A stretch of 64,000 nt of DNA from a virus (taxonomy: Duplodnaviria; Caudoviricetes). Each line of letters starts with the position of its first letter. The first letter of the stretch is position 1. Location: positions 1 through 64,000 of IMG/VR virus record IMGVR_UViG_3300025018_000138. One strand, 5' to 3'. Under the pieces are notes generated by a model. It was not told the DNA's origin. It searched no databases and saw nothing but the letters and a program-made list of their open reading frames with translations. Positions 5,558 through 62,248 of this stretch are shown here, piece by piece. The translations under genes and the position numbers were made by a program.

Positions 5558-6421
5558 CTAAACTGCCATCTTCACTTTTTTAAGTGGTGGTAAAGGGTTA
5601 TACCCAATCAACTCAATGTCTTCAAACTGAATATTCAACAATTCTTCAAACGATAATTTTGATATGTCTTTTTTAAATTTTAAAATTGGTAATGGTGGAA
5701 TTTCTTTAGTTTCCCATCTTTCAATTAATTCATTGGCTACTTCGAGTTGATGATTATATAAATGGGTATCGCCTGATGTAAATACCAAGCTATCTACACC
5801 ATAACCTAAATATTCAGCAAATAATTGTAATACAAATCCGTATCCTGAAATGTTAAATGGTGCGCCATGATAAATATCCCAACTTCTCATATAAACCATT
5901 AATGATAAGTTGTTATTTGCTACATACCATTGCTGAAACATATGACACGGTGGTAAAGCACTTTCATCCAATTGTAACGGATTCCAATGAGTAACTATAT
6001 GCCTACGTGAATCGGGATTGCGCTTTAAATTAAAAAGTAATTCTTTAATTTGGTCATAACCATCTTCTTTAGTTTTCCCACCAAAATTTCTCATTTGCCA
6101 TCCATATCCTTTGCCCATATCACCTTCGGGTAAATAATTCAAACCTCTTTCATCTAAAAATTCTCTTGTAGTATTTCCAACCCAAATATTAATATTTTTA
6201 TCTTCGAGTTTTTTTGTTTGTGTGTCTCCACGTAAGAAAAACATCATTTCTTCAACTGCTATTCTAAATGGTATTTTTCGAACAGTCATCAATGGAAATC
6301 CTACCTGCATATTCCATCTTAATTGCCTACCAAATACTGAAATCGTACCAGTACCTGTTCTATCTGATTTTACAGTTCCATTTTCTAATATATCTTCAAT
6401 TAATTCTTTATAGTTTTTCAT
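5558..6421 (-). CDS. thyA: Thymidylate synthase
   Basis: DRTGTGT, ALPPCH catalytic Cys, RSWD, PFNI, GDTHLY motifs. Confidence 0.97.
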   Translation of the reverse strand: MKNYKELIEDILENGTVKSDRTGTGTISVFGRQLRWNMQVGFPLMTVRKIPFRIAVEEMMFFLRGDTQTKKLEDKNINIWVGNTTREFLDERGLNYLPEGDMGKGYGWQMRNFGGKTKEDGYDQIKELLFNLKRNPDSRRHIVTHWNPLQLDESALPPCHMFQQWYVANNNLSLMVYMRSWDIYHGAPFNISGYGFVLQLFAEYLGYGVDSLVFTSGDTHLYNHQLEVANELIERWETKEIPPLPILKFKKDISKLSFEELLNIQFEDIELIGYNPLPPLKKVKMAV

Positions 6422-32787: not shown

Positions 32788-33429
32788 ATGATACTAATCG
32801 AACAACAGATTGATTCACAATCATTAGCTATGTTACTAAAATGTCGAACTCAATTGATTAATTTAATTAATTCATTCAAACCTTATTGTAATAATTATTT
32901 TTATATTTATGGTGGGTTTATACGAGATTTAATATCTGGGTTTAAACCAGTTGATATTGATATTAATATTGCCGACAGTAATGATAAAAATCGTGTTATT
33001 AAGTACCTATCCAAAACACATGATATTTCATATGAATCAGCTTGGGTAACTCGTTACAAGTCAAAAATGGGTTTACCAAAAACAATGTATGATATTGCAT
33101 CCAATTTTAAAACACCAACGGAATTTATATCAAATTCCGATTTTTCAAATAATGCTATATTATTTGATTCCAATTATGATTTGTTTTGTTTGGACTCGAC
33201 TATATATGCAAATACGAATAGAAAATTAATTTTAAAACCAATTGAATCTAATAGTCCTATGATTTTAGCATATAGAGCAGGTAAACTAATTCAAAAAGGG
33301 TTTGTATATAAATCCGAAAATCCTATAGACTTGATTAAAGATATAGAATATCAATTTGAACTATATACAAACCCAATCGATATTTATAAAGTTAATTTAT
33401 CCATTAACGATAGAAATGTATCACGTTGA
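32788..33429 (+). CDS. Class II nucleotidyltransferase head-domain protein
   Basis: YIYGGFIRDL, VDIDI, SDFSNNAI resemble CCA/poly(A) polymerase motifs. Confidence 0.6.
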   Translation: MILIEQQIDSQSLAMLLKCRTQLINLINSFKPYCNNYFYIYGGFIRDLISGFKPVDIDINIADSNDKNRVIKYLSKTHDISYESAWVTRYKSKMGLPKTMYDIASNFKTPTEFISNSDFSNNAILFDSNYDLFCLDSTIYANTNRKLILKPIESNSPMILAYRAGKLIQKGFVYKSENPIDLIKDIEYQFELYTNPIDIYKVNLSINDRNVSR

Positions 33430-34439
33430 AAATTTCCAATTTCAGCACCTACTAATGTTTTAGGATAATCAACTCCTAATGCTTTGTACAACAATTGTAC
33501 AATACTTACGAAAGATTCATCCAATTTACATAACATGTTAACATTGTTCATAACAACTCGTCTATTTTTCCAAATAAATAATTTTGACTCGTTTATATCA
33601 TCTACATAACTATCAATCATAATATAGTTACCATAAAATTTAGATACTTGAGCAACTTCTTTTTTGATTGGTAATGAATCAATGAATGAATCATCAAACA
33701 TACTAAATAAAAACGCAAATGAAGCATCAACATCATGGTCAATACACTCTTGAACTTCATCAATTCCCAACGATACGTCATCGATGAAACCTACATTATA
33801 TAATAATACTTTTGGGATGAAATTAAATGTAGTAATACATTTAGCAAATTCATCCAAGATTCTTTCCATTGATAATACTTTATCCAATTTAACAGTATCA
33901 AGAATTTTTTCAATTGCCAATTTAGTACTTGCATCAAATGTCAAACCATATTTAACATAGAATCTAAAGGCTCTAATCACCCGTAAATAATCTTCTTCAA
34001 ATCTGTGATACGGATTACCAACAGTTTTTAAAATATTATTTTCCAAATCTGATTGTCCATCAAACCAATCTAATATTTTTGTTCCATCAAAACCCATCGC
34101 ATTTATTGTAAAATCTCTACGTTGAGCATCTTCATAAAATGAATTGGTGAATTCTACTGTTGCACGTCTACCATCAGTACCCACATCTTTTCTAAATGTA
34201 GTATGTTCTACATGAACCCCGTGAATTATAAATGTGACCGTTCCATGCTCTATACCAGTATCATATGATGAAAAAGGTAATAAATCTTTAATTTCCAATG
34301 GTGTATATGCTGATGCTACATCGATATCATGTGCTTCACGATTGAGTAACATATCCCTTACACAACCACCAACAGCAATTACTTCGGGTGCATATTGATG
34401 AATGGCATGTAAAATTAATTCGATATTCGGGGTTGTCAT
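33384..34439 (-). CDS. cca: tRNA nucleotidyltransferase (CCA-adding enzyme)
   Basis: VGGCVRD, HDIDV, GIEHGTV, EDAQRRDFTINAM, EDYLRVIRAFRF. Confidence 0.9.
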   Translation of the reverse strand: MTTPNIELILHAIHQYAPEVIAVGGCVRDMLLNREAHDIDVASAYTPLEIKDLLPFSSYDTGIEHGTVTFIIHGVHVEHTTFRKDVGTDGRRATVEFTNSFYEDAQRRDFTINAMGFDGTKILDWFDGQSDLENNILKTVGNPYHRFEEDYLRVIRAFRFYVKYGLTFDASTKLAIEKILDTVKLDKVLSMERILDEFAKCITTFNFIPKVLLYNVGFIDDVSLGIDEVQECIDHDVDASFAFLFSMFDDSFIDSLPIKKEVAQVSKFYGNYIMIDSYVDDINESKLFIWKNRRVVMNNVNMLCKLDESFVSIVQLLYKALGVDYPKTLVGAEIGNFQRDTFLSLMDKLTL

Positions 34440-34696: not shown

Positions 34697-35242
34697 TTAA
34701 AAGAATAGATACGTCTTCCATTCATCAGGTATCTCCCCCGAATAAGATTTCATTAACATTAACCAATGTGGTCTATAAGGTTGTGGAATAGGTCTACCCC
34801 ATTCTTCATCAGTCAAACAATCTTTCTCATTATTGCATTTTTTACATGCAGTAACTAAATTGTCCCATGAATCTTTTCCACCCCTCGCTTTTGGTATAAC
34901 ATGGTCTAATGTTAATTCTTTTCTATTTTTATCGAACCCACAATAAACACACGCATGGTTATCACGTTTCAAAATGTTATCACGATTTAATGGAACCGCT
35001 TTGTTATGAACATTAACCCATTTATCGATTAATATAATTGAGGGTTTTTTGTATTGTAAATTGGGATTGATTGTTTTAAAAAACACATCATGTTCATATA
35101 CTATACGTGCATTACCTTTATACCAAATAGCAAAGGCACGTTCTGTTCGTATGATTTGCATAGGCATATATGCGGAATTAAGAACCAAACATTTATTGAC
35201 CATTTCGGTTGAAGTGGTTAAGTTCTTTACATTAGTTACCAT
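34697..35242 (-). CDS. HNH endonuclease (McrA-like)
   Basis: CVYCG, TLDHVIPKARGG, NLVTACKKCNNEK. Confidence 0.92.
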   Translation of the reverse strand: MVTNVKNLTTSTEMVNKCLVLNSAYMPMQIIRTERAFAIWYKGNARIVYEHDVFFKTINPNLQYKKPSIILIDKWVNVHNKAVPLNRDNILKRDNHACVYCGFDKNRKELTLDHVIPKARGGKDSWDNLVTACKKCNNEKDCLTDEEWGRPIPQPYRPHWLMLMKSYSGEIPDEWKTYLFF

Positions 35243-36556: not shown

Positions 36557-38230
36557 TTAAATAACAATCGCTTTAATATCGTTGAGTACTGCTTTTGGGT
36601 CAAACTCAACTTTTTTAATCAGTTCATAGATATCTTGTGTATATCCTTCGAGAGAAAACACACGTGGGTGTTTACTATTAAACATTTCTGTTGGATAACC
36701 ACAAACATTTATACTATAAACATAGGTATTACCATTCAGTTTTTCATATTCTTTAAAAGAATTTATTACCGAATCTTTACCTTGCATATCACTAATGATA
36801 AATACTCTATCATATCGTCCTTTTAATGATGGAAAGATAGTATCAAACGCAGTACCATAACCAACAGACCCTTGTTTTGATGCAATTACTTTTTTAATAG
36901 TATTTACAGAATCCAAAGGATTTATATTAATAGGTTGAGTATAGTTTGCAAAATGATATACATCTGCATTTGTAGCTTTCGCTAAAGTTGATGCAACCAA
37001 TGATGCTTTTTCGATTGCTGATTTACTACCTTGTTTTTTATTTGCTAAAGTAATCAAACTTGTCATAGAACCTGAGCTATCTAATACTACAGCAGTTTTA
37101 CCTGTGAAGTAATCTTCTAAATTTGGTATTGATAATTCATATGCTTTATTTAATGCAGTTAATATTGAACCTAAATCACTTGGGCTATGTTCTTGTAACA
37201 GAAACTCCAATGCCAAATCTATTTGGTGTGGAAACACTAATGATTTTTTGATAAATTCTGGTTCAATTAGTAAAGCAGATACTTTTTCTTTTAATGTACT
37301 ATGTCCAAGTTTAATGATATTGTTTAAGTTTCTTAACAATGCCAAGTACCCAATTTTTTTAGTATCAATTAGCTCTACAAAATTTTCACCCTTTAAATCA
37401 TCCAATTCAACTTTAGCTTGCTCAACACTTAATTCACCTGATGCCACTTTTGCAGAAACATCTTGACCCGATTTGGTGTTTTTATCTTCAACAGTATTGA
37501 ACTGTTTTAATAAACCTAACGTTAATGCAAACAATGTTGGGATAGTTACTTCTCCATCATCACTAATATTTCTTGTTAGTTTATGTGCTTGTTCTTCATA
37601 TAATACATGCCCTTTGACTGCTTTAAGTAATTTAGCTTTAGGTACAGATACTACTCCTTGAATTTCGGTTTCCCGTGGGTGTACTAACTTGACAATATTC
37701 AATAAAGAAATACTAGAAGTTTTCAATTGGTATTTAGCCAATTGGTATTTATCAGCATTTTCAATCACAGATTTGAATCCACGTTTGATAGCATTTGATA
37801 ATTTCTTACCGTTATTTAATGCCATATATGCACCTGCGATTTCCATCATATCATCTAAACGATATACAACTCCACCGCGATTTTCACCACGAACACGTTT
37901 AGTGAAGAAATGAGTTCCTAATTCGGTACCACTAAGATATCTAGCTAATACTGCTGATGCAAAATGTGTTGTTGCACGTTGTCCTACGACTGAACGTACA
38001 TAAACAATTGCTTTGGCTACCAATTCTTTATCACCAATTTTATCAATTAATGATAATATTCGTGCTTCTCTTGTTTCACTTGTTTCATAAAATGTATTAT
38101 CTACACCTGTAGCAAGAATTCCTACTAATTCTACGATTGGGTCTTTTGCAAAACCGTTTCCGTTTTCATATGTAGTTACATTTGGTTCTGCTTTAGTAGC
38201 AGATACTTGGTGTGAGTTATATTTTCCCAT
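36557..38230 (-). CDS. rsr: TROVE-domain Ro60/Rsr RNA-binding protein with C-terminal vWA domain
   Basis: TFYET, YQLAKY, YLALLRNLNNI, VVLDSSGSM MIDAS, FIISDMQ. Confidence 0.9.
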   Translation of the reverse strand: MGKYNSHQVSATKAEPNVTTYENGNGFAKDPIVELVGILATGVDNTFYETSETREARILSLIDKIGDKELVAKAIVYVRSVVGQRATTHFASAVLARYLSGTELGTHFFTKRVRGENRGGVVYRLDDMMEIAGAYMALNNGKKLSNAIKRGFKSVIENADKYQLAKYQLKTSSISLLNIVKLVHPRETEIQGVVSVPKAKLLKAVKGHVLYEEQAHKLTRNISDDGEVTIPTLFALTLGLLKQFNTVEDKNTKSGQDVSAKVASGELSVEQAKVELDDLKGENFVELIDTKKIGYLALLRNLNNIIKLGHSTLKEKVSALLIEPEFIKKSLVFPHQIDLALEFLLQEHSPSDLGSILTALNKAYELSIPNLEDYFTGKTAVVLDSSGSMTSLITLANKKQGSKSAIEKASLVASTLAKATNADVYHFANYTQPININPLDSVNTIKKVIASKQGSVGYGTAFDTIFPSLKGRYDRVFIISDMQGKDSVINSFKEYEKLNGNTYVYSINVCGYPTEMFNSKHPRVFSLEGYTQDIYELIKKVEFDPKAVLNDIKAIVI

Positions 38231-38325: not shown

Positions 38326-38354
38326 AATATATTAAACAATTTCTAAAAAGTCAA
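38326..38354 (-). promoter_or_regulatory. Promoter TTGACT-N17-TATATT upstream of the Ro60 gene
   Basis: Consensus match with 17-nt spacer. Confidence 0.6.
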
Positions 38355-38394
38355 ATGATTGTCGTATTTTTACTATTTGAAAAAAAAATATTTT

Positions 38395-38555
38395 TGGAGA
38401 ATTTTGTGTAACAGTTTTACAGGTTCATCCCTCTGCTTTTTTTTATAATGTATATTTATAATTTGATACCTTTGCGGTGTCTACAATTATAAACAGTTGA
38501 TTTTTAATCATTGTTTTGTTTTTTGTTTTACGAAGTACCTGTTATACCGCTACCA
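38395..38555 (-). ncRNA. Y-RNA-like ncRNA 1 (no tRNA module; internal hairpin with GCAAA loop)
   Basis: 5' TGGTAGCGGTATAACAGGTACTTCGTA ... ACCTGTAAAACTGTTACACAAAATTCTCCA; family motif; nearest RNA upstream of Ro60. Confidence 0.65.
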
Positions 38556-38569
38556 AAAAAAAATAAAAT

Positions 38570-38642
38570 TTTCATCAAAAGGATTTGAGCCTTTATTTTA
38601 TCTCCGTAGAAGGGAGTTGTTCTACCATTGAACTATGATGAA
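38570..38642 (-). tRNA. Atypical tRNA-Arg(TCT)-like gene
   Basis: TTCATCA/TGATGAA, CTCC-CTTCTAC-GGAG, T loop CTCAAAT instead of TTC. Confidence 0.6.
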
Positions 38643-38647
38643 AATTG

Positions 38648-38720
38648 TACTCCTACAAGGAATCGAACCTTGATTTTTCTCCGTAGAAGGGAGATATTTT
38701 ACCATTAAAATATAAGGAAA
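38648..38720 (-). tRNA. Atypical tRNA-Arg(TCT)-like gene, weak acceptor stem
   Basis: TCTCC-CTTCTAC-GGAGA, CAAGG-TTCGATT-CCTTG; mismatched acceptor. Confidence 0.55.
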
Positions 38721-38725
38721 TATTG

Positions 38726-38798
38726 TACGTCTGATGGGGTTCGAACCCATGACTTATAGTTTAAAAGACTATTACTCTACCAACTGAGTTACAGACGT
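38726..38798 (-). tRNA. tRNA-Lys(TTT)
   Basis: ACGTCTG/CAGACGT, ATAGT-CTTTTAA-ACTAT. Confidence 0.93.
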
Positions 38799-38809
38799 AT
38801 ATTTTATTG

Positions 38810-38880
38810 TAGGAGTACAAGTAATCGAAACTTGATATATTGGATGTAAACCAATCGCTTTACCATTAAGCTATACTCCC
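38810..38880 (-). tRNA. tRNA-Val(TAC), T53-A61
   Basis: GGGAGTA/TACTCCT, ATTGG-TTTACAT-CCAAT, CAAGT-TTCGATT-ACTTG. Confidence 0.88.
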
Positions 38881-39064
38881 AAGTCGAAAACTCAGAACCA
38901 CATATTCTGAGTTTTCATGTAGTATTTATTCGATTTGATTTAATTGTATATTTTTCATCTTAGATTATTTATGTGATAATTGACCAAGAGTCTAAGATTA
39001 GTATTGATAAATTTTTTTTGATATATTTTTTGACATATATTCTTATTTATTTTATCTACTAAGT

Positions 39065-39300
39065 ATAAATCTGAGCCATTCTATTTACTTGGAATAGATT
39101 ACTTCGTCAGAAAGAAGTATCACCAAAATGCTTATATACCAATCGCATATGGTTTAAAGATTAACTCATGTGTTTATGCAGAAACCATGTGCATCTTTTG
39201 GCACATGTAGAGTTGTGATTTCAGTCACTCTAAAATCTGAAATTTCATCTGTATGCTTTCTTAAATACTAGTCACTGAAGACCATCGATACTATGTGTTC
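39065..39300 (-). ncRNA. Candidate multi-hairpin ncRNA
   Basis: No ORF of 60 aa or more; hairpins TAGAGT/ACTCTA, CATGTGC/GCACATG, TACTTC/GAAGTA, CTATT/AATAG. Confidence 0.4.
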
Positions 39301-39328
39301 ACGATTTTAATAATACAAATTACTTTTG

Positions 39329-39400
39329 CACTACGGGGGAATTTCGAAATCCCATGACAAGTTTTGGAGACCTGCATATTAGCCTTTATATGACCGCAGT
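39329..39400 (-). tRNA. tRNA-Trp(CCA), atypical T-stem closure
   Basis: ACTGCGG/CCGTAGT, CAGGT-CTCCAAA-ACTTG, GGGAT-TTCGAAA-TTCCC. Confidence 0.85.
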
Positions 39401-39445
39401 ATAAATGATACTTTTAGTATAATCAAAACATATCAGTATCCCACA

Positions 39446-39597
39446 TGAACTGTTTTTCATTTACAAGGAGTAGCAATTTACTACACATCTACCTTTTTAG
39501 TACATTAACGTGTACTACTTCGGAACAGTCCATAACGTTGATGTACAAAACGCTAACTCTTATCGTAAGTCAGAAACGCCATTTTAGCTATAGTTCA
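39446..39597 (-). ncRNA. Candidate multibranch ncRNA
   Basis: Closing TGAACT/AGTTCA; internal CTGACT/AGTTAG, AGTACA/TGTACT, GTAG/CTAC hairpins. Confidence 0.35.
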
Positions 39598-39616
39598 AAT
39601 GGTAACACATTGGATG

Positions 39617-39688
39617 TATCGCATACGAGAATCGAACTCGTGTCTCTACCTTGAAAGGGTAATGACTTAACCATTTGTCCAATGCGAC
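39617..39688 (-). tRNA. tRNA-Glu(TTC)
   Basis: GTCGCAT/ATGCGAT, TTACC-CTTTCAA-GGTAG. Confidence 0.92.
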
Positions 39689-39699
39689 ATATAAAAATA

Positions 39700-39826
39700 T
39701 AAAGAAATATCAAAACAGAATTTTTAGCGCTCTACCATTGAGCTACATGTCCCCATAAGGGACATGGTTGGACTCGAACCAACAACCACTCGTTTCAATA
39801 CGATGAAACTGTTTTTGTCACTATTA
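39700..39826 (-). ncRNA. yrlA: Y-RNA-like ncRNA 2, YrlA-type (permuted tRNA module)
   Basis: Order: stem, T arm GTTGG-TTCGAGT-CCAAC, loop-closed acceptor CATGTCCC/GGGACATG, D arm GCTC-AATGGTA-GAGC, stem; matches published YrlA topology; near the Ro60 gene. Confidence 0.85.
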
Positions 39827-39835
39827 TATTTTTTG

Positions 39836-39907
39836 CTCCCCAAGTAGGACTCGAACCTACAACCTATTGGTTAACAGCCAATTACTCTGCCATTGAGTTA
39901 TTGAGGA
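39836..39907 (-). tRNA. tRNA-Asn(GTT)
   Basis: TCCTCAA/TTGGGGA, ATTGG-CTGTTAA-CCAAT. Confidence 0.93.
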
Positions 39908-39916
39908 ATATATATG

Positions 39917-39989
39917 CGATGTTGATGGGATTCAAACCCACATAATCTTCGCTGACAACGAAGTGCATTAGTCATTATGCTACAACATC
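39917..39989 (-). tRNA. tRNA-Asp(GTC), T loop TTTGAAT
   Basis: GATGTTG/CAACATC, CTTCG-TTGTCAG-CGAAG. Confidence 0.88.
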
Positions 39990-40625
39990 ATTATGTTCAT
40001 GTTTTTCGTAGAATTTTATCCATTTTCTTATAGAATTATCTGAAACTCCATATTTTCTACCTGTAGCACTAAATCCTAATGATTTTGTGTCTTGTATTAA
40101 TATTTCATATGGTGGTCTGTTTCTTTTTCTATCTTTTTTTAATATTTCAATATTTATTTTTTTTTCTTTGAATGGGTTATTATTTTCATAATCATTTAAA
40201 TAATTTATTTTAAATTTTTCTTCATTTACTCTAATTGCTGTTTTATTTTCAATATCAGATGTAGATAAGAAAAAAATACCACCGCTTTTTACTACAATAA
40301 TAATATAATCTATTTTATTTTTATCAAAATATTTTCGTGTATTATTATATTTATTACCACCGCTAGTTGCAAGTGTTACTATCCAATTATTATTTTTATA
40401 AACACTTGTTGATTTGACTTGAACTTTTAGTAAGCAATTATCTTTTTCAATAATAAAATCATACGATTGATTTTCGTTTAATGGTTTAGATACTGTGTAT
40501 CCTTCTTTTATTAAGAAAGCTAAAGCGTATGCTTCACCAACATTACCTTTATCTTTTTGGGTTTTACAATTTTCAAATATATTCATGATATTAATTATAA
40601 TATATTTTATATTTTTGAACCCCAA
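39975..40625 (-). CDS. Free-standing PD-(D/E)XK endonuclease (group I intron-associated type) with C-terminal HTH
   Basis: KGNVGEAYA, QSYDFIIEK, KVQVKS; HTH GVSDNSIRKW. Confidence 0.8.
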   Translation of the reverse strand: MGFKNIKYIIINIMNIFENCKTQKDKGNVGEAYALAFLIKEGYTVSKPLNENQSYDFIIEKDNCLLKVQVKSTSVYKNNNWIVTLATSGGNKYNNTRKYFDKNKIDYIIIVVKSGGIFFLSTSDIENKTAIRVNEEKFKINYLNDYENNNPFKEKKINIEILKKDRKRNRPPYEILIQDTKSLGFSATGRKYGVSDNSIRKWIKFYEKHEHNDVVA

Positions 40626-40647
40626 AAATAAAATAAAATAATTTTTG

Positions 40648-40734
40648 TGCGGTTCGAAAGATTCGAACTTTACGCCACCAACCCCACTTAGTTTTTGACA
40701 ACAGTTTTACAGACTGCCGTGGGGAACGAACCGC
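40648..40734 (-). tRNA. Non-canonical tRNA-Tyr(GTA)-like gene (anticodon arm precedes D-like segment; 8/4 acceptor/T)
   Basis: GCGGTTCG/CGAACCGC, GCAGT-CTGTAAA-ACTGT, then AAC-TAAGTGGG-GTT, T arm AAAG-TTCGAAT-CTTT, A73. Confidence 0.75.
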
Positions 40735-40743
40735 AAATAAAAA

Positions 40744-40887
40744 CAAAGAAATTTATAATCAGTTGACCAACATTTCAACCCCCGTACTAATACTAATTAT
40801 ATTAACATTAGTACGGGGGGCAGGAATTGAACCTACGTTATAGCAAAGCATGATTTTGTACGAAGTATCTGATTTATTACGCTATTG
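40744..40887 (-). ncRNA. Y-RNA-like ncRNA 3, YrlA-type with extended closed acceptor
   Basis: T arm GTAGG-TTCAATT-CCTGC, 13-bp CCCCCGTACTAAT/ATTAGTACGGGGG, D-like TTGA-AATGTTGG-TCAA; family terminal motif. Confidence 0.75.
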
Positions 40888-40893
40888 TTTTTG

Positions 40894-40965
40894 TGCAGGA
40901 TAAGGGATTCGAACCCTTATAGCAAGTGTGGAAAACTTGAAGATTAACCATTATCGTAATCCTGC
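40894..40965 (-). tRNA. tRNA-Gly(TCC)
   Basis: GCAGGAT/ATCCTGC, CAAGT-TTTCCAC-ACTTG. Confidence 0.88.
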
Positions 40966-40974
40966 AAAGAATTA

Positions 40975-41055
40975 ATCAAAGAAATTTTAAATGAGCGTGT
41001 TTGTAGATGTTATGTTGTAGATAATTTACGATGAAACTCATTAAGTGCTATTGAT
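40975..41055 (-). ncRNA. Y-RNA-like ncRNA 4, minimal form
   Basis: ATCAATAGCACTTAATGAGTTTCATCGTA ... CTCATTTAAAATTTCTTTGAT; family motif with a short unstructured loop. Confidence 0.65.
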
Positions 41056-41061
41056 TAAGTG

Positions 41062-41136
41062 TACCCATAGATGGATTTGAACCATCGCATAACTGCGTAT
41101 CAGACAGTTGCCTTAACCAAGCTTGGCTATATGGGC
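41062..41136 (-). tRNA. tRNA-Ile(GAT)
   Basis: GCCCATA/TATGGGT, ACTGT-CTGATAC-GCAGT. Confidence 0.92.
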
Positions 41137-41148
41137 ATAATAAAATAA

Positions 41149-41270
41149 AAGGAGAAATATAAAAAGTGTGTTCCTCTTACGAGGTCGAGTGGAATTGAAC
41201 CACTGAAGTTTATTTTCAAGATAAATGCCCAACCATTGAGCTACGATGTAACACTTTTAAACGCTACCTT
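41149..41270 (-). ncRNA. Y-RNA-like ncRNA 5 enclosing unpermuted D, anticodon(TGA) and T arms
   Basis: Family stem AAAAGTGT/ACACTTTT; GCTC-AATGGTT-GGGC; TTTAT-CTTGAAA-ATAAA; AGTGG-TTCAATT-CCACT; only 3 bp of acceptor, then CCTC-GTAA-GAGG. Confidence 0.7.
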
Positions 41271-41275
41271 TTTTG

Positions 41276-41348
41276 AGCTTTCATTGGGAATCGAACCCAC
41301 TTCCTCGCTTTACAAGAGCGAACATCATCCAATAAATGTTTTGAAAGC
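41276..41348 (-). tRNA. tRNA-Thr(TGT)
   Basis: GCTTTCA/TGAAAGC, TCGCT-CTTGTAA-AGCGA. Confidence 0.9.
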
Positions 41349-41752
41349 TATTTTCTAGTTGTTCTAGAAGATTTTCTATTATTTATATTTTTGTACGTTT
41401 TGGTTAAAGAGTGACAATTCGGACATAATAATCTTAGATTTTCTCGCAAATTATTTTTAGCATCTCCATCTATATGGTCAATCTCTAATGGTATATTACC
41501 CGTAAATTCATTTATTTGTGACCAACCACATAATGAACATTTATTATCATTTTCTTCTAATAAAAATTTTCTTATCCAATTAGGAATGGTCAATCCATTA
41601 CCACGTAGATAATTTTTACCATTTAACCACATATTAATACGTTGATTCATTTGAAATTCTTGTTGACATTTATTATTACAAAAAATGTTATTATTAACAA
41701 TTTCATTATTACAAAATTTACAAGTTTTTTCCTTTTTTTCTCTTTTTCTCAT
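41348..41752 (-). CDS. Free-standing HNH endonuclease
   Basis: CSLCGW, LEIDHIDGD, NLRLLCPNCHS. Confidence 0.9.
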   Translation of the reverse strand: MRKREKKEKTCKFCNNEIVNNNIFCNNKCQQEFQMNQRINMWLNGKNYLRGNGLTIPNWIRKFLLEENDNKCSLCGWSQINEFTGNIPLEIDHIDGDAKNNLRENLRLLCPNCHSLTKTYKNINNRKSSRTTRK

Positions 41753-42718: not shown

Positions 42719-43585
42719 TTATAGTATTTTTTTATTAAAATCAAAAAAATCTTCAAAATTTTCAAAAATAATTTCTTTTTTAATATCATCATATACAATA
42801 AACTCAGTTGGATACATAAATAATGAAGTATCAGACATTATTAATGAAGGATTTAAATAATATGGTGAATGTAATGGGAGACCATGTATATTACTAGTAT
42901 GCCCGAATATTTGTATAATATTCTTATTTGTCGCAGTAGGAACAGTAATTTCTGATGGTCTCAGCCAAAAAATTCCTCCACACGATTTATATCCACCCGA
43001 TATATATCCAATGTCAAATAACGATTTAACTTCCGAATTTCTATTACCACTTGATAATACATATAGATACATATCATTTGTTAATGGTTTTAATGTTTCA
43101 TTAATATCATCGATAGTAATTTCTTCAAATGGTATATGTTTAGTATTAGGGAGTTGTTTAAATATATCCCCATCTAATCCTGCATGAGTACATAAAAGAT
43201 TATCGATTGAATGATAAAATTTTAAAATCTTTTTATCCATCATTTTTTCATAATATGGATAAAACGAAAATCCTGCACCTGCACTATACCCAGAACATTG
43301 AAATGGATTTTCCACATGTGGTTTAATCATATATTGTAAATCGTGATTACCGATTAGATATGTCATCTTTTCGGGTTCATATTCATACATCATAGTTTTT
43401 AATAACTCTTGTTGCTTTTTTCTACCAAACTCAGGGTTATGATTATTCCCCCAAGTCACTTGTCTATTATCTACATAATCGCCTAAAAATACTACTTTAT
43501 AGTCATCAGTTGATTTTATAAATTTATTAACTTTGTTAAATAAATTTATATTACCGTGTAAATCACCAAATATTATATGTTTCAT
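42719..43585 (-). CDS. Calcineurin-like metallophosphoesterase
   Basis: GDLHG, FLGDYVD, LIGNHD, THAG, IFGHT. Confidence 0.9.
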   Translation of the reverse strand: MKHIIFGDLHGNINLFNKVNKFIKSTDDYKVVFLGDYVDNRQVTWGNNHNPEFGRKKQQELLKTMMYEYEPEKMTYLIGNHDLQYMIKPHVENPFQCSGYSAGAGFSFYPYYEKMMDKKILKFYHSIDNLLCTHAGLDGDIFKQLPNTKHIPFEEITIDDINETLKPLTNDMYLYVLSSGNRNSEVKSLFDIGYISGGYKSCGGIFWLRPSEITVPTATNKNIIQIFGHTSNIHGLPLHSPYYLNPSLIMSDTSLFMYPTEFIVYDDIKKEIIFENFEDFFDFNKKIL

Positions 43586-44124
43586 TATTTTTTACTTATA
43601 TCAGTTTGATAGTATACTTTTCCGTGATGAAAAGTTTCTATATAGTCAATAGCTTTAAATATCAATAGTTTCCTTTCATCTTCGGTTGTTCGGGAAAACA
43701 ATAATACCATATTATCATATATGACAAATTTTTTCATGTAGTTATTAAGTTTACCCAATTTTCTGAGTAAATCTTCTTGTTTACTTACACGCATTCTATC
43801 CAATATTGCATACCGCATGTGTTCTTCAATCATCATCAATACATCACGTTTGATGTTAATTGGTATGAATTTTTTAGCATATTTTAATGATGCTTTTTCA
43901 TGTCCAAATGCAGTAGGAGTTCCATCTTCCTTATATTTCAAAGTATCAATTTTACCAAAATCGTGAAATAATGCCGTGTACAATAGTTCATCGGGTTCAT
44001 TATTTTCTAATGCTTGACCCAATACTAATAGAGTATGGGTTAATACATCACCTTCGGGATGATAATCCTTACGTTGGGGAGTATTCTGTAATTGTTTGAG
44101 TAAGTTTGTTAAGTCCATAATCAA
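43585..44124 (-). CDS. HD-domain protein (related to the HD domain of multifunctional CCA enzymes)
   Basis: HPEGDVLTHT, LFHDFGK, GHE, EHM. Confidence 0.8.
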   Translation of the reverse strand: MIMDLTNLLKQLQNTPQRKDYHPEGDVLTHTLLVLGQALENNEPDELLYTALFHDFGKIDTLKYKEDGTPTAFGHEKASLKYAKKFIPINIKRDVLMMIEEHMRYAILDRMRVSKQEDLLRKLGKLNNYMKKFVIYDNMVLLFSRTTEDERKLLIFKAIDYIETFHHGKVYYQTDISKK

Positions 44125-50054: not shown

Positions 50055-52652
50055 TTATTCTGTCTCAATATCTTCACCGATAATTTCTTCAATCGAAATT
50101 GAAGCATCGGTAGTAAGAATCAATCCTGCAATCGAAACTGCATTTAATAAAGCAGATTTTGTAATCTTAAATGGGTCAATAATACCCATCTCAAACATAT
50201 CTCCATTAGTATTATTTCTAACATCTAATCCCATGTTTACATTAGAATCCTCAGTGAATCGCTTTACAAATTCTCTAATATCATTTTTACTATAACCTGC
50301 ATTTTCTAATATGGTCTCAAATGGTTTTTTTAATGAATAAAATAATATATCATATGCTAAATTTTTTTCTATTGATTTATTAATATATTTTGATGGAGAA
50401 TATTCTGTTGATATTTTCAACAATGGAATCCCACCACCTGCTACAATACCATACTCAGTTGCAGATTTAGTAGCAAATAATGCATCTTCAATTCTATCCT
50501 TTTTCTCTTGTAATTCTACTTCAGAATTTGCACCAACTTTGATGATGGATACACCATTTGTAAAATTAGCATAACGTTCATTAATAGCATTTCTTTCAAA
50601 CATTGATAATTTTGAGTCATTGATTAAAGATTCTAATAATTCTTTTCTATCATTGTATTCTTTAACTTTTGGAATACCACCGATGATAACAGAATTCTCT
50701 TTTTTACTTATAATTCGTTCAGCTTGACCTAAGTAGTCCATCGAAATATTTTTAATAGAATGTCCAAGTTCGGGAGTTATGAATGTAGCACCCGTAGATA
50801 CTGCAATGTCCTTCATAATCTCTTTTCTATTATCTCCAAATGATGCAGCTTTAATCAGACAAACTTTAATCACTCCACTTAATTTATTCTGAGCTAATAC
50901 TCCTGCTACTTCCGCTTCAAAATCTTCAGCAATAATAACCAATGGTTTTCCTGATGATACTACACCTTCAAGCACAGGTAATAATTCTTTAGCAGTTGAT
51001 AAAGTACCTGCATATACCATGACAAACGTGTTGTTTAATTCTGCTACCATTTTTTTCATGTCAGTAACAAAATAAGAAGAGAAATAACCTCTATCAATCT
51101 GCATACCCTCGACATGTGACAAATAAGTTTCATCATTTTCTGAATCTTCAACTGATACATATCCACCGACACCAACCTTGGATATAGCTTTAGCAATGAT
51201 AGAACCTAGAATGGTATCTCCATTTGCAGAAATAGTTGCTACTTGACGTAGATGTTCTTCTGAATCAATATTTTTTTTCATTGATTCTAATTTTTCAACT
51301 ACATCTACTGTTAGTAAATCCAATTCTCGTTTCAATTGAATTAAATTCATAGATTGGTTTGATGATTTAATTAACTCAAATGCTTTATGAAGAATTGCTT
51401 GTGTTAATACAGTTGCAGTAGTTGTATTGTGTGTTAAAATGAAATTATCAGTGAAATAAAGTTTATCGTTATTGCTGACTTTTATACAACGCATTGGAGT
51501 ATATACATCAGTAGGAGTAATAGATACTATTTTGTTTCCATATTTATACCCTTTCAATTGTATAAATCTATGAATAGGATTATAGGAATAAGAATTGTCA
51601 TCACTATCTCTTGTATGAAATTTGAAATTTAAAGAAATGCCTAAACTATAACATAATACTTCAAAGTTTCTTGCTAACCTTCCACTTACGGTACTAAATA
51701 CAAATCTACCTCGTTTATTTTTATAACCACCCATGTCAAGTAAACCTTGTAATAAATTTTCTCTTGTTGTATAATCATTATATAGATATTCATCTGGAAT
51801 AAATTTAGTAAAACTATTTACACCACGTAAATTAAGTTGTTCTAAAATTTCTGATAAGGATTTACCATATAATTTAACTCTAAAACTATTACTTTTTTCT
51901 ACATGAGTTACATCTTTTCGTACACCTTCGGGTAGAATCAATTTGTCAATGATATGCTGCTTTTTAAAACCTAAAGATAACTCTATAGTTTCTCCACTTA
52001 AACTTCCATCGCCTAATAGTACACCTAGTGTGTAAGGGTCTATGGGTACAGATTTCTGTGGAAAATTGACACCTTCTGATTGCACATAGTATCCATGTCT
52101 ATTATTTTTCATTGTTATTCTACCAGAGTCTATTAAAGCACGTGTGGACATAGACTTCTTAGCACCATAATTAGTTATTACCGTCCATATATGAGTATCA
52201 TCACAGTCGACCACTCTACCATCAGCAAATTTCACTTGATGTATTTGTAAATTACCTTTTTCATACACTTCTTCTACTGTTTGTACAGTATTATTAGTAC
52301 CATTGATTAAATCACCCTTTTTAATTTCAGCCATAGTAGTCCAACCATTTGGTGTGGAAATTTTAGACCAAAGTGGTTGACAACCGTCACCTGCATTATC
52401 GGCAGTTTTTTCAGCTACGGATTTGATTAAATCCGCACCCATATTTTCGATTGGGTCTTTAAGTATAATGTGTTTCGCAACAGTTACCCCATCTTTAGTA
52501 ATTAGTGGTAGTTGCATTTCTCGTTGAATGATAACATTCTTACCCGATGCACCAAGCGTTGATTTAACTGCATTAGCTAATTTGTCAACGCCTGATTTTA
52601 ATTTATGACGAGTTTCTACATCGTATGATATATGTTTAATTATCTGTTTCAT
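50055..52652 (-). CDS. groEL: Chaperonin GroEL interrupted by an intein
   Basis: TKDGVTVAK, AGDG|TTTATVL, GMQIDRGY, EKKDRIEDA, GIIDP. Confidence 0.95.
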   Translation of the reverse strand: MKQIIKHISYDVETRHKLKSGVDKLANAVKSTLGASGKNVIIQREMQLPLITKDGVTVAKHIILKDPIENMGADLIKSVAEKTADNAGDGCQPLWSKISTPNGWTTMAEIKKGDLINGTNNTVQTVEEVYEKGNLQIHQVKFADGRVVDCDDTHIWTVITNYGAKKSMSTRALIDSGRITMKNNRHGYYVQSEGVNFPQKSVPIDPYTLGVLLGDGSLSGETIELSLGFKKQHIIDKLILPEGVRKDVTHVEKSNSFRVKLYGKSLSEILEQLNLRGVNSFTKFIPDEYLYNDYTTRENLLQGLLDMGGYKNKRGRFVFSTVSGRLARNFEVLCYSLGISLNFKFHTRDSDDNSYSYNPIHRFIQLKGYKYGNKIVSITPTDVYTPMRCIKVSNNDKLYFTDNFILTHNTTTATVLTQAILHKAFELIKSSNQSMNLIQLKRELDLLTVDVVEKLESMKKNIDSEEHLRQVATISANGDTILGSIIAKAISKVGVGGYVSVEDSENDETYLSHVEGMQIDRGYFSSYFVTDMKKMVAELNNTFVMVYAGTLSTAKELLPVLEGVVSSGKPLVIIAEDFEAEVAGVLAQNKLSGVIKVCLIKAASFGDNRKEIMKDIAVSTGATFITPELGHSIKNISMDYLGQAERIISKKENSVIIGGIPKVKEYNDRKELLESLINDSKLSMFERNAINERYANFTNGVSIIKVGANSEVELQEKKDRIEDALFATKSATEYGIVAGGGIPLLKISTEYSPSKYINKSIEKNLAYDILFYSLKKPFETILENAGYSKNDIREFVKRFTEDSNVNMGLDVRNNTNGDMFEMGIIDPFKITKSALLNAVSIAGLILTTDASISIEEIIGEDIETE
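51426..52382 (-). mobile_element. 319-aa intein with LAGLIDADG homing-endonuclease region
   Basis: Starts CQP after GDG, ends ILTHN before T; LGVLLGDGSL block; second block GLLDMGG. Confidence 0.92.
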
Positions 52653-60432: not shown

Positions 60433-61061
60433 TTATCAGACTTAATAAATTCCAAACAATTTTGTTTTTTTATTTCGTTCCATAAATTATTTACACCTGA
60501 ACATTGGTGACTTGCTATATCATGAAAAACTAAGTATCCATCTTTTTTTAATAATTTCTCACTATTAATAAAATCGAATTTTACTCCATCATAAGAATGG
60601 TCTCCATCTATAAAAATAATATCAAATTTTTCATCAGGATGTTCATCAAAAAATTTTCGACTTGTTCCATCAAAAAATACGATTTTAGTATTTGTATTTT
60701 TTTGAAGAAATGAAATATTTTGTCGAATGGTATTTTTCTGTTCATTTCCCCAATAAGATGAATTATCTATCGCAACACTTAATTTCAGTAACGGTTGAAT
60801 GTAAGTTTCTATTAAAAAAGAACCACCTTTACCTACACCGATGTTAAGATATGATTCAAACTTATGGTTTTTTAAAAACCATAAATATTCCACGTATTCT
60901 TCGGGGATTTGTTGTATTTCTAATCCCCCATATTTTAAATTGTCCCCAAACCAATTTGGGTGATTTACACCTGCTTCATTTTTAAGCCAATTTAATAATT
61001 CTTCTTTTGTTAATTTGTTTATATTTGTCATTGTTATAAAATTTTTAGTTCGGGAAAACAT
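60405..61061 (-). CDS. Class I SAM-dependent methyltransferase (Methyltransf_24-like)
   Basis: LNIGVGKGGS, DIIFIDGDHSY, VFHD. Confidence 0.85.
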   Translation of the reverse strand: MFSRTKNFITMTNINKLTKEELLNWLKNEAGVNHPNWFGDNLKYGGLEIQQIPEEYVEYLWFLKNHKFESYLNIGVGKGGSFLIETYIQPLLKLSVAIDNSSYWGNEQKNTIRQNISFLQKNTNTKIVFFDGTSRKFFDEHPDEKFDIIFIDGDHSYDGVKFDFINSEKLLKKDGYLVFHDIASHQCSGVNNLWNEIKKQNCLEFIKSDKCGIGIWKK

Positions 61062-62248
61062 ATTATAAATTTTTCATCGTAAATATCCGATAATGATTCC
61101 ATTATATATTCTTTAAAATTATGAGATAGTATCAATATGTAATCAGGCTTATACGTTTGAATTATGTTTCTATCGACTATTTCAATTCCAAGTTTGGGCA
61201 AAAATTTTCCTTGTTTTATATCCGTATCATCTATTATATATGGAATATCAGTATAATCTAACCCTAAACTATTTAAAAAAATACCACCTTTGGCTGATGC
61301 TCCAAATCCTACAATTTTATATCCATCTTCAATCAACGTATTAATGAAAGTTTTACAATCATTTATATGGTTTTTTATATTTTTCCCCCAATTTATATGA
61401 GAATCTAAAGTATATTTCTTTTCCATTTCTATATATTTTTCTACCGAACCATCTGATTTAATAACATTAGAAGTATCATGAGATATAATCAAACGTAAAG
61501 AACCTGAGTGCATATCATGAAAAATTATAACATTTATTTTTAAATTATGTTTCTGCATTAATTTTACTAATGGTGATACGGAGTAATAATAAATATGCTC
61601 GTGATAAATTTGGTCGAACTGATTAGTATTCATATTATGAATCCAATATGGAAATTCCAATACCCAAATACCATCTTCTTTTAATATTTTTTTAATAGTT
61701 TTAACAAATTCATCTATGTTTTTTAAGTGCTGAAATACATTTGTAGAAATAATTACATCGAATTTGTCACTTACATGTTCGAATACATTTTCATTAAAAA
61801 AGTTGTTAATAGTAGGAATTCCAATCGATTTGGAAATTTTAGATAAATTATCCGAAGGTTCTATATTTAATAACTTTAATTTTTTATCGGAACAATCTTT
61901 AAATGTTTTTAATAAAGTACCATCGTTACCCCCTATATCCATGATGTTGGTATTATCATCTATATTTACCATAGATTGTATATATTCAAACATTTTTTTA
62001 CAATGTTCGATATAAGGTTTATTCACTGACGTTTTAAACAAGTAATTATTAAATAATTTTTTAGCTTCGATTTCATTAGTTAACGATGTTAACCCCGATT
62101 CATTGAAATATTGAAGTTCGAGTTTATATGTTTTTATTTTTAAAGAATCCTCTCGTGTCAAACATAAATCGTTGACTAACGGCATATTACCTAAGTTGAA
62201 ATATTTTGTGGAAGTTTCCGTTTGTGTTATTGGACATATGTTTATCAT
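61034..62248 (-). CDS. NDP-sugar C-methyltransferase-like protein (NovU-like)
   Basis: LGNMPL, DIGGNDG, NVFQH, QIYHEHIYYYS, GFGASAKG, DDTDIKQG. Confidence 0.85.
   Translation of the reverse strand: MINICPITQTETSTKYFNLGNMPLVNDLCLTREDSLKIKTYKLELQYFNESGLTSLTNEIEAKKLFNNYLFKTSVNKPYIEHCKKMFEYIQSMVNIDDNTNIMDIGGNDGTLLKTFKDCSDKKLKLLNIEPSDNLSKISKSIGIPTINNFFNENVFEHVSDKFDVIISTNVFQHLKNIDEFVKTIKKILKEDGIWVLEFPYWIHNMNTNQFDQIYHEHIYYYSVSPLVKLMQKHNLKINVIIFHDMHSGSLRLIISHDTSNVIKSDGSVEKYIEMEKKYTLDSHINWGKNIKNHINDCKTFINTLIEDGYKIVGFGASAKGGIFLNSLGLDYTDIPYIIDDTDIKQGKFLPKLGIEIVDRNIIQTYKPDYILILSHNFKEYIMESLSDIYDEKFIICFPELKIL

What the first reader, a model, noticed from the sequence alone, without database searches (positions are those of the whole stretch)
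38395..41270. Ro60 gene with a family of five modular Y-RNA-like genes
Seen: five RNAs share 5' NNN-TAG...stem...T(A/T)C(A/T)TCGTA and 3' ...TTCT-NNN. The terminal bases covary (TGG/CCA, TAA/TTA, CAA/TTG, ATCAA/TTGAT, AAGG/CCTT) around a bulged U. Payloads differ: two YrlA-type permuted T/acceptor/D modules, one unpermuted D/anticodon/T body, one AU-rich hairpin and one minimal loop. All lie upstream of the TROVE gene. Known: Ro60 with YrlA occurs in bacteria and some phages, and Y RNA tethers Ro60 to PNPase. Inference: an expanded set of adaptors giving one Ro60 several partners or decoy functions.
Basis: partly seen in the sequence, partly recalled or inferred. Interest (0 to 1): 0.88.

Follow-up and report, generated by a model that had tools for sequence, protein, structure and literature searches.

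The report
Phage Ro60 with five modular Y RNAs
An uncultured large phage from an aquifer carries a Ro60 RNA-binding protein gene preceded by five small RNA genes that share one conserved, covarying "handle" but carry different bodies (some tRNA-like), and the same handle turns up next to Ro60 genes in more than a hundred other phage contigs, which points to an undescribed branch of the known Y RNA family.

Summary
All five RNAs lie on the minus strand, upstream of an intact Ro60 gene (36557-38230), inside a tRNA array. They share a closing module: a terminal helix, an invariant bulged U, an R:Y pair plus a G:C pair, a 3x6 internal loop, a helix of about 9 bp, and an invariant U-W-C-W-U-C-G junction. 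A pattern of this quality is expected 0.01 times per shuffled window; five are seen. A covariance model built from relatives finds four of the five at E 9e-9 to 1e-5. The AU-rich RNA next to Ro60 matches only partly. Across 85 distinct copies from related phage contigs, 93.6% of cells pair and 14 of 15 pairs show double changes. Every copy found by the model beside a Ro60 homologue lies on that gene's strand. A scan of the virus collection with the RNA motif alone recovered Ro60 in 35 of 40 contigs; the other five are fragments. Rfam has no family for the module. It also lacks the published Ro60 motifs (GNCGAA(N)G, GGUCCGA). In relatives the payload can be a complete tRNA, in several lineages with an encoded CCA. 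Ro60 binding, processing and function are inferred, not shown. Verdict: a new variant of a known kind, real and fairly interesting. The scan had noted this same stretch before.

The parts
36557..38230 (-). Ro60 (TROVE + vWA) gene, 557 aa
   Evidence: Pfam TROVE 31.6 bits, cut-off 23. PHROG 850 RNA-binding protein, E 2.3e-24 over residues 50-549. PDB phiLo Ro60 9KOP/9L5Y, E 1.5e-19. AF2 model pLDDT 80.8, and its top 13 PDB fold matches are all Ro60. MIDAS D384-x-S386-x-S388 is invariant in 21 homologues.
38391..38559 (-). Y-like RNA E: closing module plus a 115-nt AU-rich payload, 160 nt upstream of the Ro60 start; the weakest member
   Evidence: Composite pattern score 13 (terminal 7, inner 6). 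The models match it only partly. The minimum-energy fold uses another register.
39695..39831 (-). Y-like RNA D: closing module plus a YrlA-type permuted T arm, closed acceptor hairpin and D arm
   Evidence: R2 41.4 bits, E 4.5e-7. Rfam YrlA 43.3 bits, below the gathering score of 69.
40739..40892 (-). Y-like RNA C: closing module plus a T arm, a 19-bp closed hairpin and a D-like hairpin
   Evidence: R2 35.0 bits, E 1.3e-5. Fold z-score -4.5. No Rfam family matches.
40972..41058 (-). Y-like RNA B: closing module plus a 39-nt A/C/U-rich loop
   Evidence: R1 53.4 bits and R2 48.9 bits. B was one of the 20 seed sequences of R1.
41147..41272 (-). Y-like RNA A: closing module plus an unpermuted D arm, an anticodon arm (loop CUUGAAA), a T arm, a 3-bp UCG/CGA acceptor remnant and a CCUC-GUAA-GAGG hairpin
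   Evidence: R2 42.5 bits, E 2.6e-7. Rfam tRNA 44.5 bits over model positions 5-66 only. ARAGORN does not call it.
38569..41348 (-). Eleven tRNA genes on the same strand that flank the Y-like RNAs at gaps of 0-10 nt (Arg, Arg, Lys, Val, Trp, Glu, Asn, Asp, Gly, Ile, Thr)
   Evidence: ARAGORN and Rfam. Gaps were read from the coordinates.
38326..38354 (-). Promoter-like site (TTGACT-17-TATATT) between RNA E and the Ro60 start
   Evidence: Consensus scan, 10 of 12. Promoter-like sites in the region do not exceed the shuffles, so this is weak.

Best explanation
This is a phage Ro60 ribonucleoprotein locus. Five Y-RNA-type genes lie in a tRNA array directly upstream of the Ro60 gene and on its strand. 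Each RNA has two parts. The first is a conserved closing module: the 5' and 3' ends pair, followed by an invariant bulged U, an R:Y pair and an invariant G:C pair, an asymmetric 3x6 internal loop, a helix of about 9 bp, and an invariant single-stranded U-W-C-W-U-C-G on the 5' strand. This module is most likely the docking site for the phage's own Ro60. The second part is a payload inserted right after the UCG. It differs between the five: two permuted YrlA-type tRNA mimics, one tRNA body with an anticodon loop but a closed or truncated acceptor, one unstructured loop and one AU-rich body. The RNAs are probably made as part of the polycistronic tRNA transcript. RNase P and the tRNA 3'-end enzymes that cut the flanking tRNAs, 0-10 nt away, would set them free. 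The payloads would then decide what each Ro60 particle touches. The tRNA-like ones would engage tRNA-handling or tRNA-cleaving proteins, and the loops other partners such as a 3'-5' exonuclease. Shown here: the anatomy, the covariation, and the tight co-occurrence with Ro60. Inferred: binding, processing and function.
For: 1. Ro60 identity.
2. Over the whole 64-kb window, both strands, filters off, the best hits of the model are exactly these RNAs. With R2, B, A, D and C score 48.9, 42.5, 41.4 and 35.0 bits (E 9e-9 to 1e-5) and E comes fifth. Nothing further is found in the rest of the 74.8-kb record.
3. Chance is excluded: the composite pattern is expected 0.01 times and seen 5 times.
4. RNA-level selection: in the seed alignment 96% of cells pair and 12 of 15 pairs show double changes. 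In 85 distinct copies the figures are 93.6% and 14 of 15, the covariation score is 0.759 against 0.20 in shuffles (0 of 500 reach it), and slid partners pair in only 39-53% of cells.
5. Unpaired positions are invariant in 85 of 85 copies (bulged U, U27, C29, U31, C32, G33, U283, U284), as expected of a protein contact surface. These copies were picked and aligned by the model, so the invariance is partly a result of that choice.
6. Link to Ro60: 45 of 49 related Ro60 loci searched hold at least one module, and the other four have under 1.2 kb of upstream sequence. All 92 hits in those loci are on the Ro60 strand, 75 upstream and 8 downstream. Loci without any tRNA still have the module.
7. Scans starting from the RNA motif: 40 IMG/VR contigs, 35 with Ro60, and the 5 without are 7-15% complete fragments. 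In the collection of bacterial and archaeal genome contigs (matches were mostly MAG contigs), the 3 loci confirmed by the model all have Ro60 on the same locus, within about 550 nt. None of the 7 pattern matches that the model rejects has Ro60 within the stretch fetched.
8. No other protein gene is conserved beside the module.
9. Precedent: Y RNAs are encoded within 4 kb of Ro60 on the same strand, there are at least two per species, the Deinococcus Y RNAs are co-transcribed with a tRNA, and M. smegmatis YrlA is cut by RNase P (PMC4201824). Thermus phage phiLo Ro60 binds two phage Y-like RNAs and host PNPase (PMC12135203).
Against: - No direct evidence of binding or of discrete transcripts.
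- The published Ro60-recognition motifs (GNCGAAN0-1G in bacteria, CGAA in phiLo, GGUCCGA in vertebrates) are absent. The invariant motif here is UWCWUCG.
- Only D matches Rfam YrlA, and below threshold.
- RNA E fits the models poorly.
- In relatives the module encloses complete tRNAs, so a role as a leader-trailer processing stem cannot be excluded.
- Most loci were fetched through Ro60, which inflates the association. The motif-first scans offset this only in part.
- The large alignment was fitted to the model, so its pair counts lean towards the structure.
Confidence: 0.72

Rival explanations
1. The conserved module is a leader-trailer processing stem of the phage RNA array. It would be recognised by an endonuclease (RNase III/E type, or a phage enzyme), or it would control RNase P access to the enclosed tRNA-like bodies. 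Ro60 would be linked only because it acts in the same RNA-maturation pathway.
For: In relatives the module directly encloses full-length tRNAs (Rfam tRNA 49-55 bits over positions 1-71; ARAGORN). The acceptor stem starts at the invariant C or G of UUCG, and CCA is encoded in four of the seven cases inspected by eye. The RNAs sit in tRNA arrays at tRNA-like spacing.
Against: Most copies (about 60 of 95) enclose no tRNA-like body at all. Loci with no tRNA genes still carry the module next to Ro60. Ordinary tRNAs of the same arrays lack it. Ro60 is the only gene that travels with the module.
Confidence: 0.12
2. Ro60 does bind these RNAs, but the payloads have no separate partners. The copies would be redundant gates or stabilisers of Ro60, or an autoregulatory site before the Ro60 mRNA in the case of E. 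The tRNA-like bodies would only protect the RNA from nucleases.
For: PMC4201824 discusses nuclease protection as one possible role of the tRNA-like module. E, and many relatives' copies, lie 90-400 nt before the Ro60 start.
Against: The same payload classes (permuted T/acceptor/D, unpermuted D/anticodon/T, half-tRNA, short A-rich loop, a form of about 190 nt downstream of Ro60) recur in several Ro60 lineages and often together in one locus. That argues that the classes are kept separately.
Confidence: 0.12
3. The elements are decaying tRNA pseudogenes or a small mobile repeat that spread in the tRNA array, with no function as RNA.
For: Homing endonuclease genes (PD-(D/E)XK, HNH) lie within the array, so the region is subject to insertions.
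Against: The helices differ in sequence between copies yet stay paired through double changes, while loop positions are invariant. The module persists across Ro60 homologues that are only about 28-52% identical to the window's.
Confidence: 0.03

Closest known systems
Bacterial and phage YrlA / YrlB Y RNAs (Chen et al. 2014, PMC4201824; Rfam RF02553)
   Same: Encoded close to Ro60 on its strand, several per locus. The ends pair into a stem. One class has a permuted T arm, closed acceptor hairpin and D arm (window D and C). Another is a hairpin with a pyrimidine/A-rich loop (window B). The acceptor hairpin varies in length, as reported for cyanobacterial YrlAs (10.1101/312249).
   Different: No GNCGAAN0-1G motif; the invariants are a bulged U and UWCWUCG. 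D reaches only 43.3 bits against a gathering score of 69, and the other four do not match. Both strands of the stem are conserved and covary. Payloads include a body with a real anticodon loop and, in relatives, whole tRNAs. YrlA has neither an anticodon loop nor a free CCA end.
Deinococcus radiodurans Yrn1/Yrn2 locus (PMC4201824)
   Same: Several small RNAs lie upstream of rsr. Yrn2, tRNA-Asp and Yrn1 are made as one precursor. Yrn1 is modelled with D-loop features, an anticodon-arm-like stem-loop and a T arm, the same order as window RNA A.
   Different: The Yrn stems keep the metazoan-type Ro-binding helix. The Yrn1 'anticodon loop' has 6 nt and its D arm is doubtful, whereas RNA A has a regular 7-nt loop with U33 and a purine at 37, and standard D and T arms.
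Thermus phage phiLo Ro60 with Yrl1/Yrl2 (PMC12135203; PDB 9KOP, 9L5Y)
   Same: A phage Ro60 with phage-encoded Y-like RNAs upstream. It is the closest solved structure to this protein (E 1.5e-19; Foldseek E 1.6e-15).
   Different: phiLo has two RNAs defined by a CGAA motif in an internal bulge. Model R2 finds nothing in the phiLo locus. Protein identity is only about 22-24%.
Metazoan Y RNAs and nematode stem-bulge RNAs
   Same: Modular build: a closing stem with a conserved bulged nucleotide for Ro60, plus a variable loop for other partners, and several paralogues per genome (from established knowledge of Y RNAs, and PMC4201824).
   Different: Different conserved sequence, no tRNA-like modules, and transcription by Pol III as single genes.

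Membership tests
Y RNA (Ro60-associated ncRNA, criteria of Chen et al. 2014) | Encoded within about 4 kb of a Ro60 orthologue and on the same strand | tested here: met
   All five lie 160-3040 nt upstream of the Ro60 start on the - strand. All 92 model hits in the related loci are on the Ro60 strand.
Y RNA (Ro60-associated ncRNA, criteria of Chen et al. 2014) | The 5' and 3' ends pair into a stem with a conserved bulge | tested here: met
   15-pair structure, 93.6-96% of cells paired, 12-14 pairs with double changes. The bulged U is invariant, and the pair beside it is A:U in 56, G:C in 29 and unpaired in 0 copies.
Y RNA (Ro60-associated ncRNA, criteria of Chen et al. 2014) | Known Ro60-recognition sequence on the 5' strand (GNCGAAN0-1G or GGUCCGA) | tested here: not met
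   The 5'-strand invariant is U(A/U)C(A/U)UCG. In the YrlA alignment the model's CGAA region is not matched by sequence.
Y RNA (Ro60-associated ncRNA, criteria of Chen et al. 2014) | Physically bound and stabilised by Ro60 | not testable with these tools
   Needs RIP or EMSA. Only co-occurrence is shown.
YrlA (Rfam RF02553) | Score at or above the curated gathering score (69 bits) | tested here: not met
   D scores 43.3 bits. A, B, C and E give no match at E up to 10.
YrlA (Rfam RF02553) | Permuted tRNA-like domain: T arm, closed acceptor hairpin, D arm; no anticodon loop | tested here: met
   Met for D (alignment to the model) and, by fold and inspection, for C. Not met for A, B and E.
tRNA (Rfam RF00005), for RNA A | Complete cloverleaf with a 7-bp acceptor stem and free ends | tested here: not met
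   Rfam matches model positions 5-66 only. ARAGORN makes no call. The acceptor is reduced to UCG/CGA followed by a capped hairpin.
Ro60 / TROVE protein | TROVE/HEAT ring plus a vWA domain with a MIDAS motif | tested here: met
   Pfam TROVE is above its cut-off. There are full-length fold matches to Ro60 of phiLo, Xenopus, human and Deinococcus. DxSxS, T460 and D481 are invariant.

The most novel reading that the evidence does not exclude
The handle is a general Ro60-loading cassette used by a wide clade of uncultured phages, including crAss-like gut phages and a megaphage of about 635 kb. It would mount interchangeable RNA cargo on Ro60: tRNA mimics that display anticodon loops and, in some phages, complete tRNAs that end in CCA. 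The particles would watch over, shield or imitate tRNAs during infection, for example as bait for host anticodon nucleases or as a checkpoint on the phage's own tRNA supply. That would give the long-unexplained tRNA-like domain of bacterial Y RNAs a concrete job.
Probability: 0.2. Interest if true: 0.85.

Novelty: new variant of a known kind. Interest (0 to 1): 0.66.

Why it matters
Ro60 with Y RNAs is conserved from bacteria to humans, yet the purpose of the tRNA-like module of bacterial Y RNAs is still unknown (PMC4201824; 10.1101/312249). This locus and its relatives act as a natural swap experiment. One invariant handle carries at least five payload types, with 85 distinct sequences to compare.

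- It defines a Ro60-associated RNA module that is not in Rfam. With it, Y RNAs could be annotated in phage genomes where the Ro60 gene is labelled but no RNA is, or where the gene is only 'hypothetical' (crAss-like cr111_1, csAssE-Sib, megaphage LR745206).
- It shows that the accepted recognition motif is not universal.
- It gives clear constructs for binding, structure and partner-finding experiments.
- Some annotated phage 'tRNA genes' may really be Y RNA payloads. This was already suspected for phage Bas63 (PMC11482910).

Tried and rejected
- Rfam at gathering threshold over the window gave only tRNAs. In E-value mode only D matched YrlA. For C only noise appeared, microRNA and tmRNA fragments.
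- Short modules of relatives match no Rfam family at E up to 0.01.
- A first IMG/VR pattern with the wrong gap length gave a single match and cost one scan.
- Expression: 24 public runs hold the stretch, nearly all aquifer DNA metagenomes. The one RNA library, kept as contigs, gave no cover on any of the five RNAs, so nothing can be said about their transcription.
- Promoter and terminator scans were not informative. Promoter-like sites number 33 against 26.6 in shuffles, and the terminator-like hits are tRNA arms.
- A search for a second conserved protein partner beside Ro60 (233-aa ORF, CCA-adding enzyme, HNH, PD-(D/E)XK, Metallophos, HD) found none that travels with the module. The CCA-adding enzyme is near Ro60 in only 6 loci.
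- I considered that the RNAs are read from the other strand, because the reverse complement of UUCG is CGAA. I rejected this: the T- and D-arm sequences and the YrlA and tRNA model matches are strand-specific and lie on the Ro60 strand.
- Two reviews on bacterial Y RNAs were not held in the library.
Full report
**What the window is.** It is 64 kb of a 74.8-kb IMG/VR virus record, estimated 36% complete. Its DNA recurs in many aquifer metagenomes. It is AT-rich and carries 25 tRNA genes, all on the minus strand. It also has homing-endonuclease genes, a CCA-adding enzyme and helicases, so it is a large uncultured phage.

**The protein.** The ORF at 36557-38230 (-) encodes 557 aa.
- Pfam matches only a short TROVE stretch, but above its cut-off.
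- PHROG 850 'RNA-binding protein' covers residues 50-549.
- The only PDB sequence hits are the Ro60 of Thermus phage phiLo, E 1.5e-19.
- An AlphaFold2 model built on 21 homologues has pLDDT 80.8. Its 13 best fold matches are all Ro60 structures, aligned over nearly the full length: phiLo, Xenopus, human and Deinococcus Rsr.
- The MIDAS residues D-x-S-x-S, T and D are invariant in the homologues.

It is a real, intact Ro60.

**The five RNAs.** Reading the minus strand and a composite scan give:
- A: 41147-41272
- B: 40972-41058
- C: 40739-40892
- D: 39695-39831
- E: 38391-38559

Each has the same parts in order: a terminal helix of 6-8 bp, U, A-G, a short loop, a helix of about 9 bp, then U(A/U)C(A/U)UCGUA. 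After the payload come the return strand of the helix, about six loop bases ending in UU, then C-U and the return strand of the terminal helix.

In 100 dinucleotide shuffles of the window, a composite match of this quality occurs 0.01 times. Five are seen.

- D holds a permuted T arm, closed acceptor and D arm. It is the only one with an Rfam YrlA match, at 43.3 bits, below the gathering score of 69.
- C has the same layout with a 19-bp acceptor-like hairpin.
- A holds a D arm, an anticodon arm with a regular 7-nt loop, and a T arm. Rfam's tRNA model matches positions 5-66 only and ARAGORN does not call it. Its acceptor is reduced to UCG/CGA followed by a CCUC-GUAA-GAGG hairpin. By inference, the two stack into a capped, acceptor-length helix.
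- B has a 39-nt loop almost free of G.
- E has a 115-nt AU-rich body.

**Relatives.** The Ro60 protein recovered 67 IMG/VR loci at 43-52% identity. The same scan found 87 distinct RNAs of the same build in them. I aligned 20 short members and wrote down the structure. On that alignment 96% of cells pair and 12 of 15 pairs show changes on both sides.

Model R1 then found 95 matches at E below 0.01 in 50 sources. All 92 that lie in the related loci are on the Ro60 strand. On the 85 distinct copies:
- 93.6% of cells pair and 14 of 15 pairs have double changes.
- The covariation score is 0.759 against 0.20 for shuffles, and none of 500 shuffles reaches it.
- Slid partners pair in only 39-53% of cells.
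- The pair next to the bulged U is A:U in 56 copies and G:C in 29, never unpaired.
- Unpaired positions are invariant in all 85: the bulged U, U-C-U-C-G of the junction, and UU of the 3' loop.

This alignment was picked and fitted by the model, so these figures lean towards the structure. The hand-built seed alignment gives the same answer.

**Back to the window.** With filters off over both strands, R1's five best hits are the five RNAs. Model R2, rebuilt from all 95 matches, scores B 48.9, A 42.5, D 41.4 and C 35.0 bits (E 9e-9 to 1.3e-5). E gets only a partial match of 17.9 bits at E 0.11, using an internal alternative 3' strand. E's distal closing fits the family spacing: a 9-bp helix with one A.C mismatch, a 6-nt 3' loop, UUCU, then CCA pairing with UGG. 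It is therefore a probable but divergent member. The rest of the record holds no further copy.

**Is the link to Ro60 real or a result of how loci were fetched?**
- Of 49 Ro60 loci searched, 45 have at least one module. The four without have under 1.2 kb of upstream sequence.
- Modules number 1-6 per locus, 75 upstream and 8 downstream of Ro60. Loci without any tRNA gene still have them.
- A scan of IMG/VR with an RNA pattern alone gave 40 contigs. Ro60 is present in 35. The five without are 7-15% complete fragments. The one complete genome among the eight contigs checked whole has Ro60.
- That scan also reached Ro60 proteins only 30-36% identical to the window's.
- In the collection of bacterial and archaeal genome contigs the same pattern hit ten stretches, most of them on MAG contigs. 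The three confirmed by the model all carry Ro60 on the same locus, within about 550 nt. None of the seven that the model rejects has Ro60 within the stretch fetched.
- No other protein gene travels with the module.
- The module also precedes the Ro60-like genes of published genomes, where no such RNA is annotated: crAss-like phage cr111_1, phage csAssE-Sib (a weak match, 26.5 bits) and a 635-kb megaphage, whose record carries no annotation at all.
- It is absent near the more distant Ro60 genes of phiLo, Vibrio phage Va1 and Streptomyces phage Quantum. Quantum instead has a classical YrlA-like match.

In relatives the 'unpermuted' payload is often a complete tRNA. ARAGORN calls ten such cases. 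Rfam's tRNA model matches two of them end to end at 49-55 bits. The acceptor stem begins at the invariant C or G of UUCG. By my own reading of the pairings in the sequences, CCA is encoded at the right place in four of the seven cases inspected (L007, L040, L008, L025). Other lineages have truncated acceptors, like window RNA A. So the handle encloses anything from 20 unstructured bases to a whole tRNA. This keeps a processing-stem reading alive as a rival. Against it, most copies enclose no tRNA-like body, and the ordinary tRNAs of the arrays lack the handle.

**Mechanism.**
- Shown: a structured RNA family under selection, specific to one Ro60 clade, same strand, mostly upstream.
- Inferred from the sequence: in the window each RNA is 0-10 nt from the neighbouring tRNAs. 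RNase P cleavage of the next tRNA and 3' trimming of the previous one would release it.
- Inferred from established knowledge: Deinococcus Yrn2, tRNA-Asp and Yrn1 come from one precursor, and M. smegmatis YrlA is cut by RNase P (PMC4201824). Y RNAs bind Ro60 through the closing stem and tether it to partners such as PNPase, as shown for a phage Ro60 as well (PMC12135203).

I therefore read the handle as the Ro60 docking site and the payloads as adaptors, with confidence about 0.7. The handle does not contain the published recognition motifs (GNCGAAN0-1G, CGAA, GGUCCGA). This clade either recognises a different sequence or binds in another way.

**Novelty.** Already published: several Y RNAs per Ro60, tRNA-like modules, phage Ro60 with Y RNAs, co-transcription with tRNAs, and the idea that extra Y RNAs widen Ro60's partners (PMC4201824, PMC12135203, PMC7824862). 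The suggestion that some phage 'tRNA genes' next to a Ro60-like gene are Y RNAs has also been made (PMC11482910). I did not find, in Rfam or in the paper library, the following: this handle with its invariants, its spread over more than 100 phage contigs, the payload swapping, or whole tRNAs enclosed in a Y-type stem. Two reviews could not be read, so prior description cannot be fully excluded. I class it as a new variant of a known kind.

**Expression.** No evidence either way for the five RNAs.

Noticed in passing
window 38959-39315: A 357-nt contig from an aquifer metatranscriptome library matches this stretch with no differences. It lies between tRNA-Trp and tRNA-Val and is not one of the five Y-like RNAs. 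It has no ORF of 40 aa or more, no Rfam match, and no similarity in the related loci. It could be a stable unassigned RNA, or DNA carried over into the library.
   Followed up: partly
window 40648-40734 (-): A tRNA-like sequence with a CUGUAAA loop (GUA, Tyr) and a good T arm lies between RNA C and the endonuclease ORF. Neither ARAGORN nor Rfam calls it a tRNA. RNA E contains a similar CCUGUAAAACUGUU stretch.
   Followed up: no
window 39975-40625 (-), 41348-41752 (-), 34697-35242 (-): A PD-(D/E)XK endonuclease ORF and two HNH endonuclease ORFs sit inside or beside the tRNA/Y RNA array. They are probably homing endonucleases. The first overlaps the start of tRNA-Asp by about 15 nt.
   Followed up: partly
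window 33384-34439 (-), 42719-44124 (-), 61034-62248 (-): Genes for tRNA and RNA handling lie around the locus: a CCA-adding enzyme (PolyA_pol head, PHROG tRNA nucleotidyltransferase), an adjacent Metallophos and HD phosphohydrolase pair, and a protein with a weak tRNA methyltransferase match.
   Followed up: partly
window 50055-52652 (-): An 865-aa ORF joins an N-terminal P-loop region (weak matches to terminase large subunit, DnaC-like loader and primase families) to a full GroEL-type chaperonin (residues 410-853). This is an unusual fusion, or possibly an inserted element.
   Followed up: no
L007 685-1083: A related phage contig encodes a full tmRNA (Rfam 83.4 bits) in the same array, just upstream of its Y-like RNAs.
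   Followed up: no
L007 1256-1381, L040 673-798, L008 3813-3938, L025 4120-4248: In relatives, complete tRNA cloverleaves are enclosed by the Y-type handle. By my reading of the pairing, CCA is encoded after the acceptor stem. L008 and L025 have a C1.A72 mismatch, and L007 and L040 a mismatch at pair 4:69.
   Followed up: partly
L113 5892-6017 (crAss-like phage cr111_1): The annotated tRNA-Gln of this published genome lies inside a weak match to the handle (22 bits, E 0.03). A strong handle match follows at 6261-6324, before the unannotated Ro60-like gene.
   Followed up: no
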